DNA of 64,000 nt, taken from positions 128,001 to 192,000 of the IMG/VR virus record IMGVR_UViG_3300035390_000014; one strand, given 5' to 3'. Made by a program: the position numbers and the translations under genes. This DNA comes from a virus. Taxonomy: Duplodnaviria; Caudoviricetes. Below, piece after piece: positions 938-20,486 of this stretch (positions are counted from its first letter, which is position 1; every line of letters begins with the position of its first letter). The notes under the pieces are model-generated. The model was not told the DNA's origin and ran no database searches. It saw only the letters and a list, made by a program, of their open reading frames with translations.

Positions 938-940
938 TAT

Positions 941-1024
941 GCACGGACTGAGTATTTGATGAACTCAAGAGAAGGTACCCTCCGCTTTAGAGCTTTGGTG
1001 GTTTGAATCCATCTCCGTGCACCA
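941..1024 (+). tRNA. Atypical tRNA-like gene with degenerate anticodon arm
   Basis: Perfect acceptor gcacgga/tccgtgc + ACCA, D arm gagt/actc, T arm ggtgg-tttgaat-ccatc, variable hairpin; anticodon arm only gag/ctc with loop AAGGTACC (no U33). Confidence 0.65.
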
Positions 1025-2892: not shown

Positions 2893-2980
2893 GGTAGGAA
2901 TGTTGAAATTGGTAAACATGCGAGGTTGTGATCCTCGTGCCTTAAGTGGTTTGCGGGTTCGAATCCCGTTTCCTACCCCA
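2893..2980 (+). tRNA. trnH: tRNA-His(GTG) with encoded G-1:C73 and an unusual long variable arm
   Basis: G-gtaggaa/ttcctac-C-CCA, anticodon arm cgagg-ttGTGat-cctcg, about 15-nt variable region tgccttaagtggttt. Confidence 0.85.
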
Positions 2981-5388: not shown

Positions 5389-5462
5389 CGGGAAGCGATC
5401 AAGGAGACAAGTATGCTTTGGAAGTATGCGATAGGCTGGTTCGATCCCAGTCTTCCCGACCA
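5389..5462 (+). tRNA. trnP: Second tRNA-Pro(TGG) with atypical D arm
   Basis: cgggaag/cttcccg + ACCA, loop TTTGGAA, T arm gctgg-ttcgatc-ccagt; poorly pairing D arm. Confidence 0.75.
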
Positions 5463-9402: not shown

Positions 9403-9472
9403 TTATTAATTCATTATAAAAAACAATTATTATATATATTAATAACTATAATGCAACACATTAATTTGTATT

Positions 9473-9610
9473 TTATAAAAGGTTAAGAACGGAAAGATTA
9501 TACATAAAATAACTCAGGTGGTAGAGTATTTGCCTCAAAAGCAAACTGTCGTTGGTTCAATTCCAACTTTTAACAAAACCTAATCTTTTATATTACTTAA
9601 CCTTTTATAA
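9473..9610 (+). ncRNA. Scaffold RNA Y1 (Y-RNA-like): tRNA-like cargo in D-anticodon-T order, anticodon CAA, acceptor end fused to scaffold
   Basis: 15-bp outer stem ttataaaaggttaag/cttaaccttttataa, AACG/ATATTA loop, inner stem gaaagatta/taatctttt; arms actc/gagt, tttgc-ctCAAaa-gcaaa, gttgg-ttcaatt-ccaac. Confidence 0.85.
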
Positions 9611-9622
9611 GATACAAATTTA

Positions 9623-9761
9623 AATGAGAGAACGAAAAATGATTACAGATTATTACTATGATTAAGTAAAGGTCGCAGGTTCGAGTCCTGTCATAAGGGA
9701 AACTTTATGTAACTCAGTTGGTAGAGATTATATCAACAATCATTTTTATATTACTCTCATT
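9623..9761 (+). ncRNA. Scaffold RNA Y2: permuted cargo (anticodon-T-acceptor-D), acceptor capped by GAAA tetraloop
   Basis: aatgagag/ctctcatt, AACG/ATATTA, aaaaatgatt/aatcattttt; ttact-atGATta-agtaa, gcagg-ttcgagt-cctgt, cataagg-GAAA-ctttatg, D arm actc-agttggta-gag. Confidence 0.88.
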
Positions 9762-9768
9762 ACATTTT

Positions 9769-9863
9769 TGTAGATCGCCGGTGGGTGACTATGCACCTTG
9801 GAAAACATAACTTTAGATGACTGGTAATTATCCGGTATATATCTAATTTCCCGGGGATCTACA
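9769..9863 (+). ncRNA. Unassigned structured RNA inside the array
   Basis: Terminal stem tgtagatc/gatctaca plus ccgg/ccgg; hairpins ggtg/cacc, ttagat/atctaa, actgg/ccggt. Confidence 0.55.
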
Positions 9864-9872
9864 ATACAATTT

Positions 9873-10002
9873 GCCCTCATTGAGAGCGTTTCTACCAAGG
9901 AGCCATAATGTTGAATCTAGATAGATGTTATGGAAATTGATTAGAGCGAGAGGTATTCTCATTGGTCTTAGGATCAGATAGGTTCGAGTCCTATTGGGGG
10001 CT
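9873..10002 (+). ncRNA. tRNA-like RNA whose D arm is replaced by a roughly 80-nt extended hairpin
   Basis: Acceptor gccctca/tgggggc, T arm atagg-ttcgagt-cctat, nested stems tgagag/ttctca, cgtttcta/tagagcg, ccataa/ttatgg; hairpin with loop CTTAGG; no CCA. Confidence 0.65.
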
Positions 10003-10011
10003 GAATAATTT

Positions 10012-10161
10012 TAATGGAAGAACGGAAAATAATTACAGTAGTCCATTAGGAGGACGTGTTTGGAGGTTCGAATCCTTCTTTCCCCACCACACATTTATGG
10101 GGAAATAGGCAAACTGGTACAGCCGCGTAATACAACAATTATTTTTAAATTACTTCCATTA
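10012..10161 (+). ncRNA. Scaffold RNA Y3: permuted tRNA-Leu(UAG)-like cargo with A73-CCA in the acceptor linker
   Basis: taatggaag/cttccatta, AACG/AAATTA, gaaaataatt/aattattttt; gtcc-atTAGga-ggac, ggagg-ttcgaat-ccttc, tttcccc-A-CCA-cacatttat-ggggaaa, D arm ggc-aaactggtaca-gcc. Confidence 0.88.
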
Positions 10162-10240
10162 CTTTTTTATGCCGGGTGATACGTATGTTTATCCATACGC
10201 CGGCTCCATTATTATAATAATAAAAAACAGGGAGATTAGG

Positions 10241-10717
10241 ATGAAAATGAAAACAAGTTTAATTTATGGTTTAATTTTGGTAATGGTTTCTATGTTAGCA
10301 ATTTCATGTAGTCAAAGGAAATTGGTAACAACTCCTGTTTTTAAAATGACTATTGCTGAAGTAAAAGTTGCAGCTCCTGAACCTGCAACAGTAACTGATA
10401 TCAGAGAAAGCATAATGTTTAAATATGATAGCTCTGTTATTGAAGAAATTGAAATGAAAAAGGTTGAAGAAATTGCTGGAGTAATGGCACTTTATTCTGA
10501 TACAGACCTAGTCCTTAAAGGTTATGCAAGTTCAGAAGGTACAACCGAATATAATACTGAACTTTCTTTAGCAAGGGCTGAAGTTGTAAAAGCTGAATTA
10601 CTAAGCCTGGGTGTTTCAGAAGATCGCATTCTTATACTAGGTCATGGAGCAACCAATGAATTTGGTGAGCTTCTAGATTTAAACAGAAGAGTCCTTGTTT
10701 TAAGCATGGATGAATAA
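10241..10717 (+). CDS. OmpA-family peptidoglycan-binding lipoprotein (start moved from 10169)
   Basis: Signal peptide with lipobox LAISC; IMFKYDSS, LKGYASSEG..EYN.ELS.ARA, GHG, LNRRV; RBS before 10241. Confidence 0.85.
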   Translation: MKMKTSLIYGLILVMVSMLAISCSQRKLVTTPVFKMTIAEVKVAAPEPATVTDIRESIMFKYDSSVIEEIEMKKVEEIAGVMALYSDTDLVLKGYASSEGTTEYNTELSLARAEVVKAELLSLGVSEDRILILGHGATNEFGELLDLNRRVLVLSMDE

Positions 10718-10725
10718 CAATATTT

Positions 10726-10810
10726 AAGTCAGAACGAAAAGAGATTACAGTAAAAATTAATGCTTCCAAACAGCAATACAATACAACAATTTCTTTTGAA
10801 TTACTGACTT
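10726..10810 (+). ncRNA. Scaffold RNA Y4: minimal form carrying one anticodon-like hairpin
   Basis: aagtcag/ctgactt, AACG/GAATTA, aaaagagatt/aatttctttt, cargo tgct-tccaaac-agca. Confidence 0.85.
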
Positions 10811-10824
10811 TACATTTTTAAACT

Positions 10825-11090
10825 ATATGAGGTTTGTCGTTTTGAAATATGAAACGAATACTTTAATCAGGATTTGTATTTTGCTATTTTATTGCCCTGG
10901 ATAATACCGGCCCCCAATGGGACTGCCTGGTTACTGGGCCTGCATAACCCACGCGCGTGGTTGGCACTTTAGATCCTGAAAAAGTAAAAAATAGCTGAAA
11001 ACGTGGAGACTATCCACTACTAGATTTGACAACCTAGAAACTAGTACACAGTAAGCTGAGATTGTCAGTCTTAGAATCTGTGCCTCATAT
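10825..11090 (+). ncRNA. Unassigned structured RNA of about 265 nt
   Basis: 8-bp closing stem atatgagg/cctcatat; GC-rich interior with hairpins ccacgc/gcgtgg, gtgga/tccac, tactag/ctagta; no ORF in the track. Confidence 0.5.
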
Positions 11091-11102
11091 TACAATTTTT
11101 AG

Positions 11103-11249
11103 AGAGTTAGAACGAAAAAATATTCCAGATATACAATATAGGTTCAATCCCTATTTTGGGCTCCAAGCATGCCCATGCTGACAATTGGCTGTCAACTTGT
11201 CTTAAACAACAGGTGTAATAAATAAAATATTTTTTAAATTACTAACTCT
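11103..11249 (+). ncRNA. Scaffold RNA Y5: permuted cargo (T-acceptor-D-anticodon) with U73-CCA in the linker
   Basis: agagttag/ctaactct, AACG/AAATTA, aaaaaatatt/aatatttttt; atagg-ttcaatc-cctat, tttgggc-T-CCA-agcat-gcccatg, tgac/gtca, acttgt-cttaaaca-acaggt. Confidence 0.85.
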
Positions 11250-11256
11250 TTTATTT

Positions 11257-11301
11257 AAAATATTCGTCATAACCTTAACCAGTTATGACGAATATTTTTT
11301 T
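11257..11301 (+). terminator. 17-bp hairpin plus T-tract between RNA array and vWA gene
   Basis: aaaatattcgtcataac / gttatgacgaatatttt followed by further Ts. Confidence 0.7.
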
Positions 11302-11350
11302 GCCGACAATAGGAACGAATCATTTTAAACGTGAAAAGGAGAAAATCCGA

Positions 11351-12958
11351 ATGGTTAATTTACCTGTTCGAATTGAAGAAAAATTTGTTAACGCAAATTT
11401 AAGAAAAATTGGGCAAGACATTGAAACAACTATGTCTTTATTTGGCACTGATATGAACAGAGCTACACATTATAACACCAAAGAAGAGTTAGCAGCTATG
11501 AGCGAAAAAGAACATAGAAATATGTTTTCTATTGATCGTTCAATCTATGGCTGTATTGCTTGTCTACCTGGTACAACTGATATTTCTAAAATGAAAGTTG
11601 TTACCAATCTTTTAGGTATCTCATGGGAGCATGGATCTGATTTTCAAGTCACTACTCCTATTCTTACAATAGAACAGGAAAGATTAATCATTGATCATCT
11701 GGTATCAACACTTCCTCCAAATAGAATGATAAATTTGTTTGCTTCTTTTGAGGATAGTCGAGTTAACAATACCCGTATGAGAAAAACAGTTCTTCCTTTT
11801 ATTCTTAACTCAGGTAGTCTTGGGTGGTGGGCAGTTAAGTATAGAAGTAAATTGAAAACTGTATTATCTCATTGTTGGGGTAAAAAGATGACAAGTGTTA
11901 TTGTTTCTATCATTGGGAAAAGAGCAAAGACCCAAAAAGAAAATGATATCCTTGATTCCTTTATTGGTAAGTATATTGTTATCGTTGAGAAGACTAAACG
12001 TAAGGCTATATTTGAATGTCTACGTTTTATCTTTTCTGTTGGTGATAATTTTACCAACCATCTTTTTGTAAATTTCCATGCTTCAAAAACTGATTTCTCA
12101 AAAGCAAAAGGTTTGCCAAAAGAAGTAATTGAAGGTATAAGAGCGGCTTATCACCCAACTCTGGATAAAGCTGAAACCTTAAAAGTTGCTGAGTCGTCAA
12201 TGACTAACAAGGAAAAACGTTTGGTCCAAAACCAGGCTGTTAAAACTGGAGTTAAAATTGAATGGGACCCTAAGACACAACCATTGGTCGAACTCTTTAT
12301 ATACGGGTTTAAAATGGGGTTCACCAATGCAATACATGATGCTATTCTACAAAAATCTGATAGAGCTGGTCAAGCATTGCCATTTACCTATGATAAAGTT
12401 GGGATCATTTGTGACGATAGTTTTTCAATGAGTGGTTCTGAAGATCAGAAACTGAAAGCATTGGCTATAAGTTATGCTACAGTTGAAACATTGAAAGGTG
12501 TTGGTTCTACGACTCTGGTGGCATCTACTTCTGGTAGACGTCCATCATATACCAATAGTCCAATGGGTGAATCAAATCTGGCAAAACCTTTACTTAAATT
12601 GTTAAAGAGAGATGTAGATGTTATCTTTGTTGTATCTGATGGTTATGAAAATGCACCAGAAGGTAGATTTGGAGAAGTGTTGAAAATTGCCAGGGATAAA
12701 GCTGGAGTAACAACCCCAGTATATCATTTTAATCCAGTTGGAGCTGCTGAAAGTAAAGTTGCTGTAAAAAGATTATCTAATGATGTTCCGGTGACTCCGG
12801 TGACTAATCCAGAGAAAATGGGTCTTTCATTATTTAAGACAATGATAGCAGCTGATCCAAAACAAGGGATTGTTAGATTGTTTAACATGGTTCTTCCAGA
12901 ATTGGAAAAGACTAAACTATTATACTCTCGGGTTAACCTAGAAGCTATAAGCGAATAA
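11351..12958 (+). CDS. Helical N-terminal region plus C-terminal vWA domain; Ro60/TROVE-like (inferred); start moved from 11285
   Basis: MIDAS motif DDSFSMSGS, VFVVSDGYEN, VYHFNPV; long predicted-helical N-terminal part; AAGGAG before ATG 11351; vWA solid, TROVE relationship inferred. Confidence 0.6.
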   Translation: MVNLPVRIEEKFVNANLRKIGQDIETTMSLFGTDMNRATHYNTKEELAAMSEKEHRNMFSIDRSIYGCIACLPGTTDISKMKVVTNLLGISWEHGSDFQVTTPILTIEQERLIIDHLVSTLPPNRMINLFASFEDSRVNNTRMRKTVLPFILNSGSLGWWAVKYRSKLKTVLSHCWGKKMTSVIVSIIGKRAKTQKENDILDSFIGKYIVIVEKTKRKAIFECLRFIFSVGDNFTNHLFVNFHASKTDFSKAKGLPKEVIEGIRAAYHPTLDKAETLKVAESSMTNKEKRLVQNQAVKTGVKIEWDPKTQPLVELFIYGFKMGFTNAIHDAILQKSDRAGQALPFTYDKVGIICDDSFSMSGSEDQKLKALAISYATVETLKGVGSTTLVASTSGRRPSYTNSPMGESNLAKPLLKLLKRDVDVIFVVSDGYENAPEGRFGEVLKIARDKAGVTTPVYHFNPVGAAESKVAVKRLSNDVPVTPVTNPEKMGLSLFKTMIAADPKQGIVRLFNMVLPELEKTKLLYSRVNLEAISE

Positions 12959-12968
12959 GGAGAATAAA

Positions 12969-13994
12969 ATGGAAATTACAATTGCAGAAGTGTTGAAAGG
13001 ATGTACTCCTGGTCGTATGCAAAGCGCTGGGTATATGCAGATGGTTCCATTACTATCTGAACCTGATATGATTGATAAAAGATTTGGAGCATTTACTGGA
13101 ATACTATCAAGTACCCATGATTATGGAACAGTTCATTTAGAAAATAAAGAAGACTTTCCAACAATCATGCCCATGGGAACTGCTATTTTAACTACACAAA
13201 GTGCTCAGAATCATGCTCTTGGTAAAGTTAAATTAATGACCAGAATGTCCGAATCAAATATTGATACAGCAGCTTGTATCCAGGATACTCAGGGTGGGAT
13301 CATTAGAAGCGGTGTTCATAGTTTATCAATCCTCCCATATTCAATTCGTGAGAAAGCGTTGGAAATAAAGGATAAGAGAGGTTATAGTAAACTATGGCCT
13401 GCTATCAAAGTATTTAATGAGGAAGTTGGGATTGAAGAAGGTAACTACCGTTCCATGGGTCATCTTGAACATTACCTGGAAACATTTGGTGATAAGCTTG
13501 ACGAGTTCATTGGTCAGTTTGAAATTGTTCCAAATCAAGTCGGAGCAATTATTTTGTTAAATGGTCAAATTGCTGGTGTTGAAAGAGCACCCAATTATGA
13601 TTTCTGGAAAGAATTGTGGAAACCATTGATTCGTGAATGTTATGGTTCTGCATCTTTGGTATTTGCTAAGAAAGGTGAGAAACCTTCACCACCACTTGGA
13701 AGAATGCCGATTAATGATCACTTGGTTAAAAACATTGATGATCTTGAAACTGAATATAATAAGGCTGAAAAACATGAAGAAGATACTGTAAAGAATCTTA
13801 TTCGGAATTTTATTCAGCAACCATTTACTGCCACTCGGGAAGAAAATGAACCCAATGGTACTATTTGTGTGGATCATCTTAGTGGTGGTCAATTCACTGG
13901 ACAGATTGTTAGAGACAGCGCATTTGTTGTTTATGCCAGTCTGGTTCCAGATAAGAATGCTCGATTTAATACAGCAGCAGCATTTACAATTTAA
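12969..13994 (+). CDS. ARPP-like (ARG/Rhodanese-Phosphatase-associated) protein, tightly linked to the vWA gene
   Basis: GRMQSAGYMQMVPL, HDYGTV.LEN, QNHAL, AACIQDTQGG, QVGAIILLNGQIAGVERAP recalled from vWA-associated bacterial proteins; 10 nt after upstream stop. Confidence 0.5.
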   Translation: MEITIAEVLKGCTPGRMQSAGYMQMVPLLSEPDMIDKRFGAFTGILSSTHDYGTVHLENKEDFPTIMPMGTAILTTQSAQNHALGKVKLMTRMSESNIDTAACIQDTQGGIIRSGVHSLSILPYSIREKALEIKDKRGYSKLWPAIKVFNEEVGIEEGNYRSMGHLEHYLETFGDKLDEFIGQFEIVPNQVGAIILLNGQIAGVERAPNYDFWKELWKPLIRECYGSASLVFAKKGEKPSPPLGRMPINDHLVKNIDDLETEYNKAEKHEEDTVKNLIRNFIQQPFTATREENEPNGTICVDHLSGGQFTGQIVRDSAFVVYASLVPDKNARFNTAAAFTI

Positions 13995-15363: not shown

Positions 15364-15446
15364 GCAGAAGTCGGTCAACGGTAGATCACCTGCCTTCCAA
15401 GCAGGCGCTTTAAGCATTGCGGGTTCGATTCCCGTCTTCTGCTCCA
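15364..15446 (+). tRNA. trnG: tRNA-Gly(TCC) with long variable arm
   Basis: gcagaag/cttctgc, U73, CCA, cctgc-ctTCCaa-gcagg; 13-nt variable region cgctttaagcatt. Confidence 0.88.
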
Positions 15447-19667: not shown

Positions 19668-19743
19668 GCCGGTGTAGCTTATTGGGAGAGCCGAGAACTC
19701 TAAATTCTTGATTGAGTAAGTTCGATCCTTACCATCGGCACCA
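19668..19743 (+). tRNA. Amber suppressor tRNA, anticodon CTA
   Basis: gccggtg/catcggc, A73, CCA, D arm gctt/gagc, gagaa-ctCTAaa-ttctt (anticodon 19700-19702), T arm gtaag-ttcgatc-cttac. Confidence 0.88.
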
Positions 19744-20407: not shown

Positions 20408-20486
20408 GTCCCTGTATACCCTCTGATTACGAACCAGATGAAAGGTTAACGGACACATGGAGGTTCGAATCCTCTCAGGGATACCA
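20408..20486 (+). tRNA. Atypical tRNA-Arg(ACG)-like gene lacking a canonical D arm
   Basis: gtccctg/cagggat + ACCA, T arm ggagg-ttcgaat-cctct, tctga-ttACGaa-ccaga only 7 nt after the acceptor strand, 20-nt segment 3' of the anticodon arm. Confidence 0.7.

What the first reader, a model, noticed from the sequence alone, without database searches (positions are those of the whole stretch)
9873..10002. tRNA-like RNA with its D arm replaced by a long nested hairpin
Seen: 7-bp acceptor and canonical T arm flank about 80 nt of nested stems, then a UAG-containing hairpin with a 6-nt loop and no variable loop; no encoded CCA. Inference: the reverse design to the Y elements (cargo inserted into a tRNA body), possibly another mimic of the same system.
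Basis: partly seen in the sequence, partly recalled or inferred. Interest (0 to 1): 0.6.

Follow-up and report, generated by a model that had tools for sequence, protein, structure and literature searches.

The report
Phage tRNA-shaped RNA with self-pairing tip
A large bacterial virus and its relatives carry an uncatalogued RNA that keeps the frame of a transfer RNA but cannot read codons. It grows a long hairpin whose tip always matches itself, so two copies probably pair; the design resembles phage T4's long-unexplained 'species 1' RNA.

Summary
The D arm is not replaced: a 4-bp D stem, A14-G15 and G18G19 remain, and a roughly 65-nt rod is inserted into the D loop. The UAG hairpin is a 6-bp stem with a UUAG tetraloop, not an anticodon; most homologs have GUUGAUCW there. 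I found nine homologs (eight syntenic, upstream of a Ro60-fold gene) and looser relatives in unrelated phages, with covariation support. All ten core copies carry a 6-nt palindrome in the rod's tip loop, in four versions. Even its two adjacent central bases covary, which cannot be pairing within one strand, so a kissing-loop homodimer is inferred. The intron and decoding readings fail. It is not a Y RNA, and three complete phages with relatives lack Ro60. The closest known RNA is T4 rnaC (species 1): same architecture, no sequence-level match, and its tip pairs with the anticodon-position loop instead. The scan has noted rnaC-like designs on other DNA; sequence look-ups found no note on this family. 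Verdict: new variant of a known kind. Dimerisation and function are untested.

The parts
9873..9879 (+). Acceptor stem, 5' strand
   Evidence: Pairs 7/7 with 9995-10001; 4 of 7 pairs show two-sided changes across homologs
9880..9886 (+). 1-nt linker (U 9880), D stem 5' strand (9881-9884), then A14-G15 equivalents (9885-9886)
   Evidence: Most core and distant members parse with a 0-1 nt linker, a 4-5 bp D stem and then A; that A is invariant in alignment A1
9887..9951 (+). Rod inserted in the D loop: short CGU helix, YCAA/UUGR helix, conserved GGAG/AAA internal loop, about 10-bp apical stem and tip loop
   Evidence: Fold; YCAA/UUGR helix 94% paired; apical stem has 4 two-sided pairs
9913..9923 (+). 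11-nt tip loop holding the palindrome UCUAGA (9916-9921; 8-nt AUCUAGAU 9915-9922): inferred intermolecular kissing site
   Evidence: Only 6-nt palindrome in the RNA and unpaired in the fold. Homologs have UCUAGA, CUCGAG, CUAUAG or GCUAGC here; these columns are 100% complementary, including the adjacent central pair
9952..9961 (+). G18G19 equivalents (9952-9953), 4-nt spacer, D stem 3' strand (9958-9961)
   Evidence: GG lies 2-5 nt before the D stem 3' strand in most members; absent in L125 and L452
9962..9977 (+). Anticodon-position hairpin, short subtype: 6 bp plus UUAG tetraloop, joined to the T arm with no variable loop
   Evidence: The same 16-nt geometry with other tetraloops occurs in L226 and in the L123 paralog; the long subtype has 7-8 bp plus GUUGAUCW
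9978..9994 (+). Canonical T arm (5 bp, loop UUCGAGU)
   Evidence: 100% paired in 9 copies, 3 two-sided pairs
9995..10002 (+). Acceptor 3' strand and discriminator U (10002); CCA not encoded here
   Evidence: discriminator varies (A, U, G) and CCA is encoded in 4 of 9 homologs
9623..9770 (+). Context: upstream Y-like RNA
   Evidence: Weak Rfam YrlA match 9646-9761, 35.8 bits, below the gathering score of 69; scaffold motif at 9630
10012..10168 (+). Context: downstream Y-like RNA, about 10 nt after the element
   Evidence: Scaffold motif at 10020 and 10148; conserved in syntenic loci
11285..12958 (+). Context: Ro60-fold ORF downstream of the RNA cluster, followed by an ARPP-family ORF (12969-13994)
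   Evidence: No Pfam hit; the top 13 Foldseek hits of its model are Ro60/Rsr/TROVE structures; ARPP-1 E=9e-18

Best explanation
A stable, non-decoding phage RNA of the T4 rnaC (species 1) design. Shown by comparison: it keeps a tRNA acceptor stem, T arm, D stem and G18G19, lacks a usable anticodon arm and variable loop, and carries a roughly 25-bp rod in the D loop whose tip is kept self-complementary. Inferred: (1) it is cut from the cluster transcript by host RNase P and 3' trimming, and receives CCA; (2) two copies join tip to tip through the palindrome, as a kissing loop or an extended duplex; (3) the dimer presents two tRNA 'top halves' and acts as a bivalent decoy or scaffold for proteins that read the tRNA elbow and acceptor end, such as tRNA-targeting defence nucleases or sensors, or processing enzymes. 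My odds: real conserved RNA about 0.93; non-decoding about 0.9; self-pairing of the tip about 0.65; decoy or scaffold role about 0.3.
For: Nine homologs found by synteny and by a flank pattern, with covariation support. Tip palindrome in 10 of 10 core copies in four versions; the two adjacent central bases change together (UA, CG, AU), which a single strand cannot pair. Background palindrome rate is 0.02 at a fixed position and 0.13 anywhere in 12 nt, so three independent switches have roughly 1e-5 to 2e-3 chance (my arithmetic). Distant relatives were found without regard to the tip, yet five have palindromic hairpins (centres UGCGCA, AGCGCU) starting at positions 40-43. The second loop also keeps self-complementarity through a double change, GAUC to GGCC, in L227. 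No conserved aminoacylation identity (pair 3:70 and base 73 vary, no G3-U70). The genome already has tRNA-Leu(UAG) and a tmRNA. T4 rnaC has the same layout and is expressed with unknown function (PMC9697503, PMC3014915). Palindromic and kissing contacts are established motifs of natural RNA dimers (PMC12990946).
Against: No expression, processing or dimer data. Homologs are few and related, so the independent palindrome switches number about three. Loop self-duplex energies alone are not individually significant (3 of 9 below p=0.05). In distant members the palindrome is partly forced by a perfect hairpin. L289 and L320 lack a palindrome at position 39-47 (L320 has one at 32 in a shorter RNA). 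The window copy has lost the GUUGAUCW loop and the CCA. The decoy role has no direct support.
Confidence: 0.55

Rival explanations
1. A dedicated part of the Ro60-like/Y-RNA system, binding the Ro60-fold protein or its ARPP partner.
For: Inside the Y-like cluster upstream of the Ro60-fold gene in 8 related loci. The start of the D loop reads A-R-C-G in most core copies, like the 5' half of the neighbours' scaffold motif; L125 and L227 match that half.
Against: The 3' half of the scaffold motif and YrlA's GNCGAA are absent in all 12 copies tested. L221 lies outside a Y cluster; L122 keeps the cluster without the element. No Ro60/TROVE in three complete phages with relatives.
Confidence: 0.15
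2. Mainly processing punctuation: the tRNA-like top half gives RNase P and RNase Z sites that release the flanking Y-like RNAs from one transcript, as mascRNA does for MALAT1 (from my own knowledge).
For: Canonical 7-bp acceptor and T arm, with a gap of only about 10 nt to the next RNA; a 7-bp acceptor is the RNase P determinant in M. smegmatis YrlA (PMC4201824).
Against: Does not explain the conserved rod, internal loop or covarying palindrome. Its position in the cluster varies and it can be absent (L122, L226). Not exclusive of the best explanation.
Confidence: 0.12
3. As in T4 rnaC, the rod tip pairs with the anticodon-position loop of the same molecule, and the palindrome is secondary.
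For: In the long subtype the tip's 5' flank (RUYAAY) can pair 3-6 bp with GUUGAU (6/6 in L222). AAY precedes the palindrome in the long-subtype copies and is lost in both short-subtype copies (window GAA, L226 GAU). T4 has a perfect 6-bp tip-to-loop match (p=0.0065).
Against: The palindrome varies while the loop stays constant, so the two do not covary. Tip-to-loop pairing is not significant in any family member (p 0.06-0.94). The window copy lacks the loop. It may be a second contact in the long subtype only.
Confidence: 0.1
4. The window copy is a decaying pseudogene of the family.
For: It has lost the GUUGAUCW loop (the gap equals one 7-nt stem strand), has no CCA, and its z-score is only -1.06.
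Against: All helices are intact with compensatory changes. The same 16-nt hairpin geometry occurs in L226 and the L123 paralog. The tip palindrome is extended to 8 nt.
Confidence: 0.06
5. A tRNA with a D-loop intron that is spliced to a working tRNA.
For: ARAGORN at relaxed threshold calls an intron-bearing tRNA-Arg here; some in-silico cuts give tRNA-Thr or tRNA-Leu calls.
Against: 616 trial excisions per copy give no call in 5 of 12 copies and inconsistent anticodons in the rest. No conserved bulge-helix-bulge. The residual body lacks the 8-9 linker, a 7-nt anticodon loop and a variable loop. The Thr call needs a broken D stem, a C-A mismatch and C37.
Confidence: 0.02

Closest known systems
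Phage T4 rnaC (species 1 RNA, NC_000866 70908-71046; function unknown, PMC3014915, PMC9697503)
   Same: About 130-140 nt, in a phage tRNA cluster; acceptor stem, D stem directly after it, A14, long nested rod in the D loop, GG, long hairpin at the anticodon position, no variable loop, T arm; CCA not encoded; 6-nt pairing loop at the rod tip.
   Different: No sequence-level membership: the rnaC model finds nothing in this genome and gives at most 10.4 bits on a family member; the family model gives rnaC 18 bits, like ordinary tRNAs. The rnaC tip (UUGACG) is invariant and complements the other loop (CGUCAA); here the tip is a variable palindrome. rnaC has an A-rich linker of about 8 nt and an acceptor with two U-U mismatches.
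Bacterial and phage Y RNAs of the YrlA type (Rfam RF02553; PMC4201824)
   Same: tRNA mimic with T arm and D-loop features, encoded next to a Ro60-fold gene.
   Different: Not circularly permuted, no Ro60-binding stem or GNCGAA motif, no Rfam match; relatives occur without Ro60.
Canonical tRNA (RF00005), including tRNA-Leu(UAG), and archaeal tRNAs with D-loop introns
   Same: Acceptor, T arm, D stem, A14, G18G19.
   Different: No 8-9 linker in most copies, no 7-nt anticodon loop, no variable loop, no conserved bulge-helix-bulge; not called at default thresholds.
tmRNA tRNA-like domain
   Same: Acceptor plus T arm framing a large interior.
   Different: No G3-U70 and no tag ORF; has a D stem; the phage has a separate tmRNA at genome 109075-109464.
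RNAs that dimerise through palindromic or kissing loops (OLE, ARRPOF, HYER1/5, ROOL, GOLLD: PMC12990946; HIV-1 DIS from my own knowledge)
   Same: 6-nt self-complementary loop flanked by purines at a hairpin tip.
   Different: Unrelated in sequence and size; no Rfam match; dimerisation here is inferred only.

Membership tests
T4 rnaC (species 1 RNA) | tRNA frame (acceptor, D stem, GG, T arm) with a long rod in the D loop and no variable loop | tested here: met
T4 rnaC (species 1 RNA) | Sequence/structure similarity detectable by covariance model | tested here: not met
   rnaC model (4 sequences): no hit in the genome, 10.4 bits at best on a member; family model scores rnaC 18 bits. The model is shallow, so remote ancestry is not excluded.
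T4 rnaC (species 1 RNA) | Rod tip complementary to the anticodon-position loop (UUGACG with CGUCAA) | tested here: not met
   Not significant in any member; the tip is self-complementary instead
T4 rnaC (species 1 RNA) | Accumulates as a stable RNA cut from the tRNA-cluster transcript | not testable with these tools
   No RNA data
YrlA / bacterial Y RNA | Encoded adjacent to a Ro60 homolog | tested here: met
   1.3 kb upstream of a Ro60-fold ORF; not true of distant relatives
YrlA / bacterial Y RNA | Ro60-binding terminal stem with GNCGAA motif (or the local scaffold motif) | tested here: not met
YrlA / bacterial Y RNA | Permuted tRNA domain with the acceptor closed as an internal hairpin; Rfam RF02553 match | tested here: not met
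   RNA ends form the acceptor as in tRNA; no match at E up to 5
Canonical tRNA-Leu(UAG) | 5-bp anticodon stem, 7-nt loop with U33, long variable arm, A73 | tested here: not met
   6 bp plus tetraloop, no variable loop, U73; UAG not conserved
Intron-containing tRNA | Removal of the insert restores a canonical tRNA with a conserved anticodon; bulge-helix-bulge or group I core | tested here: not met
   no Rfam intron match
tmRNA | G3-U70, D loop without stem, tag ORF | tested here: not met
Kissing-loop homodimer RNAs | Self-complementary hexamer in an exposed loop, conserved by covariation | tested here: met
Kissing-loop homodimer RNAs | Dimer observed physically | not testable with these tools
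   Only a cofold estimate: dimer -89.0 against 2 x -37.2 kcal/mol, with no shuffled control

The most novel reading that the evidence does not exclude
An undescribed family of phage tRNA-framed RNAs that must pair with themselves, forming dimers (or chains and rings when the second palindromic loop is present) that display several tRNA elbows and CCA ends. It would be the self-pairing counterpart of T4 rnaC, which would suggest that rnaC's two complementary loops also pair between molecules, and that rnaC-type RNAs are multivalent decoys against host proteins that target tRNA.
Probability: 0.3. Interest if true: 0.8.

Novelty: new variant of a known kind. Interest (0 to 1): 0.6.

Why it matters
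T4's species 1 RNA has been known for about fifty years without a function. A separate family with the same frame but a covarying self-complementary tip points to RNA-RNA assembly as the conserved property of this design and gives a cheap test (native gel, tip swaps). Relatives sit unannotated in cultured phages (Pantoea AAM37 and PSKM, Xanthomonas DIBBI, and a short form in Salmonella kutterviruses), so deletion and host-range tests are possible. Natural RNA oligomers are rarely reported (PMC12990946).

Tried and rejected
Rfam, at gathering and relaxed thresholds, on the window and on homologs: no family. BLASTn of the region against GenBank phages: only T-arm fragments. Exact and UAG-centred pattern scans of viral contigs: no second short-subtype copy of this sequence. 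Pattern scan of GTDB genomes: none of 69 hits scores as a member. Phages with distant Ro60-fold relatives (26-38% identity) lack the element near that gene, and five searched whole show no strong match. Minus-strand fold: weaker, rejected. Sigma-70 promoter scan: below chance, and the terminator scan did not list the hairpin at 11259-11302. Intron excision, bulge-helix-bulge, Leu(UAG), Thr(GGU), Arg(UCU) and tmRNA readings: rejected. Pairing of the tip palindrome with the anticodon-position loop within one molecule: not significant. DNA of the closest relative (88% protein identity) upstream of the Ro60-fold gene was not available. Literature searches found no description of this family; the library lacks most older subscription papers, including the 1970s T4 work. 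Caveats: model scores of the nine training sequences are circular, and the GUUGAUCW loop of the distant relatives was part of the search pattern.

Full report
Setting. The window is part of a 202.7-kb phage contig with a nearly full tRNA set, including an ordinary tRNA-Leu(UAG), and a tmRNA. The finding lies in a cluster of structured RNAs (about 9470-11250). Five units share a scaffold motif (5' halves at 9487, 9630, 10020, 10732, 11110), one with a weak YrlA match. Downstream is a 557-aa ORF without Pfam hit whose model matches Ro60/Rsr structures best, followed by an ARPP-family gene.

Observation. The acceptor stem, T arm, nested stems, missing variable loop and missing CCA are as described. 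Neither ARAGORN nor Rfam calls the element at default settings. Alone it is not more stable than shuffles (z = -1.06), so the case rests on homologs.

Homologs. Contigs encoding close relatives of the Ro60-fold protein carry the element in the same cluster (L120, L123, L124 partial, L125, L225, L226, L227). A pattern flanking the rod tip found four metagenome hits, all full-length members; they add L222 (in the cluster) and L221 (behind tRNA-Phe, no Y-like neighbours). L122 keeps the cluster but lacks the element. On nine aligned copies 85.7% of cells pair and 21 of 42 pairs have two-sided changes; no shuffle reaches this and slid controls give 36-53%. A covariance model also picked up sequences not used to build it: L124 (55 bits), a 78-nt paralog in L123 (49 bits), and looser relatives in unrelated phages (L289, L320, L255, L447, L452; 30-47 bits). 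Ordinary tRNAs reach about 33 bits, so the weakest of these rest on hand parsing. Some are cultured and unannotated: Pantoea phages AAM37 and PSKM, Xanthomonas phage DIBBI, and a short form in Salmonella kutterviruses.

Corrected anatomy. The D arm is not replaced. Members parse as: acceptor, 0-1 nt, a 4-5-bp D stem, A14 (usually followed by a purine), the rod, usually GG, 2-5 nt, the D stem 3' strand, a hairpin, 0-2 nt, the T arm. The rod therefore sits in the D loop at positions 16-17, and the G18G19 needed for the elbow contact with the T loop is kept (the contact itself is inferred). The hairpin at the anticodon position has two forms: 7-8 bp with loop GUUGAUCW, or 6 bp with a tetraloop (window UUAG, L226 GUUU, L123 paralog UAGC). 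UAG is thus not an anticodon. The discriminator and pair 3:70 vary, and CCA is encoded in four of nine homologs, so no charging identity is evident.

The tip palindrome. In all ten core copies the tip loop holds a 6-nt palindrome: UCUAGA (window, L120, L123, L226), CUCGAG (L125, L221, L225), CUAUAG (L222, L124), GCUAGC (L227). Treated as pairs, these columns are 100% complementary with two-sided changes at all three positions, including the two adjacent central bases (L227 is misaligned there). Adjacent bases cannot pair within one strand, and a DNA-binding protein would not accept four different sites, so pairing between two RNA copies is the simplest reading (inference). Background is 0.02 per fixed position and 0.13 per 12-nt stretch. 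With about three independent switches this gives roughly 1e-5 to 2e-3. Five distant relatives have palindromic hairpins starting at positions 40-43, although there the hairpin forces part of the symmetry. The second loop of the long subtype is also self-complementary (GAUC; GGCC in L227).

Alternatives. Intron: 616 trial excisions per copy yield no tRNA in five of twelve copies and scattered anticodons in the rest, with no conserved bulge-helix-bulge. Y-RNA component: the scaffold's 3' half and GNCGAA are absent, and three complete phages with relatives encode neither TROVE nor this Ro60-fold family (the TROVE control rang in 2 of 14 genomes). Tip-to-loop pairing in cis is not significant in any member, though a 3-6-bp AAY-GUU contact may exist in the long subtype: AAY is lost in both short-subtype copies.

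Comparison with the known. An earlier scan note led me to T4 rnaC. Fetched and folded here, rnaC has the same layout. In four variants the tip UUGACG and the other loop CGUCAA are invariant and complementary. The D-loop GG and T-loop UUC switch together to CG and UGC in two of them, supporting a tRNA elbow. rnaC is expressed late and has no known function (PMC9697503, PMC3014915); it is cut from the tRNA-cluster transcript (PMC2330249). Reciprocal covariance searches show no membership. So the element is built like rnaC but is not shown to belong to its family, and it differs in using a self-complementary tip. Palindromic and kissing contacts are established in natural RNA dimers (PMC12990946).

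Mechanism. Shown: conserved tRNA frame, D-loop rod, covarying palindrome, no decoding features. Inferred: release from the cluster transcript by RNase P and 3' trimming with CCA addition (by analogy with tRNA and M. smegmatis YrlA); tip-to-tip dimer; two tRNA top halves displayed as a bivalent decoy or scaffold. The last step is a commitment without direct evidence.

Verdict. A real, uncatalogued RNA family; a new variant of the rnaC-type tRNA-framed phage RNAs. The scan has noted this general design in other phages, but sequence look-ups found no note on this family. Interest 0.6.

Noticed in passing
window 9770-9863 (+): Another structured RNA directly upstream (three-way junction, z = -4.08); a homolog sharing the GGGUG...AUGCACC hairpin lies at about L123:3563-3657. 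No Rfam match.
   Followed up: partly
window 10171-10208 (+): 38-nt mini-helix ending in CCA right after a Y-like RNA; conserved in L120, L122, L123, L124, L222 and L226.
   Followed up: no
window 9503-9575 (+): ARAGORN's tRNA-Leu(CAA) is the cargo of a Y-like scaffold without a true acceptor stem; its anticodon differs in relatives (UAU in L122 and L123).
   Followed up: partly
window 10169-10717 (+): OmpA-family ORF inserted in the RNA cluster; present in the closest relative, absent in the other syntenic loci.
   Followed up: no
window 940-1024, 5389-5462, 20408-20486; genome 126380-126488: Further tRNA-framed RNAs (acceptor, T arm, CCA) with non-standard interiors, missed at default thresholds; the 20408 one has a homolog at L125:15267-15347.
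   Followed up: partly
window 19668-19743 (+): tRNA with CUA anticodon, also present in L125, although TAG ends 13 of 118 long open frames in the genome.
   Followed up: partly
window 2894-2980 and 15364-15446 (+): tRNA-His and tRNA-Gly are 87 and 83 nt, longer than usual for these class I tRNAs; the Gly one has an inserted variable arm.
   Followed up: no
window 10825-11090 (+): GC-rich gene-free stretch with conserved blocks in all syntenic loci; probably another RNA.
   Followed up: no
window 11259-11302 (+): Long hairpin with a U run between the RNA cluster and the Ro60-fold gene; an equivalent hairpin with different sequence occurs in each relative. Terminator-like.
   Followed up: no
L450:1407-1546 (T4 rnaC), L453-L455: rnaC shows a coupled change GG/UUC to CG/UGC between D loop and T loop, and invariant complementary loops UUGACG and CGUCAA.
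   Followed up: yes
L123:3333-3410: 78-nt paralog with a short D-loop hairpin and no palindrome, in tandem with the full-length copy.
   Followed up: partly
L225:1939-2086: This copy has a 12-nt one-sided insertion in the rod that holds an extra UGAUCA palindrome.
   Followed up: no
L451:2223-2308, L330, L446, L242: Kutterviruses (L451, L330) and similar contigs carry an unannotated 86-nt tRNA-framed RNA with an 8-bp stem and GUUGAUCA loop but no rod, inside a larger structured region between tRNA genes.
   Followed up: partly
window 76, 7802, 8125, 14422, 17429, 18116, 19655, 21631 (+): Recurrent GAACATATTATAA-type motif before tRNAs and genes, probably a phage promoter; a different conserved AT-rich block (9412-9445) precedes the RNA cluster.
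   Followed up: partly
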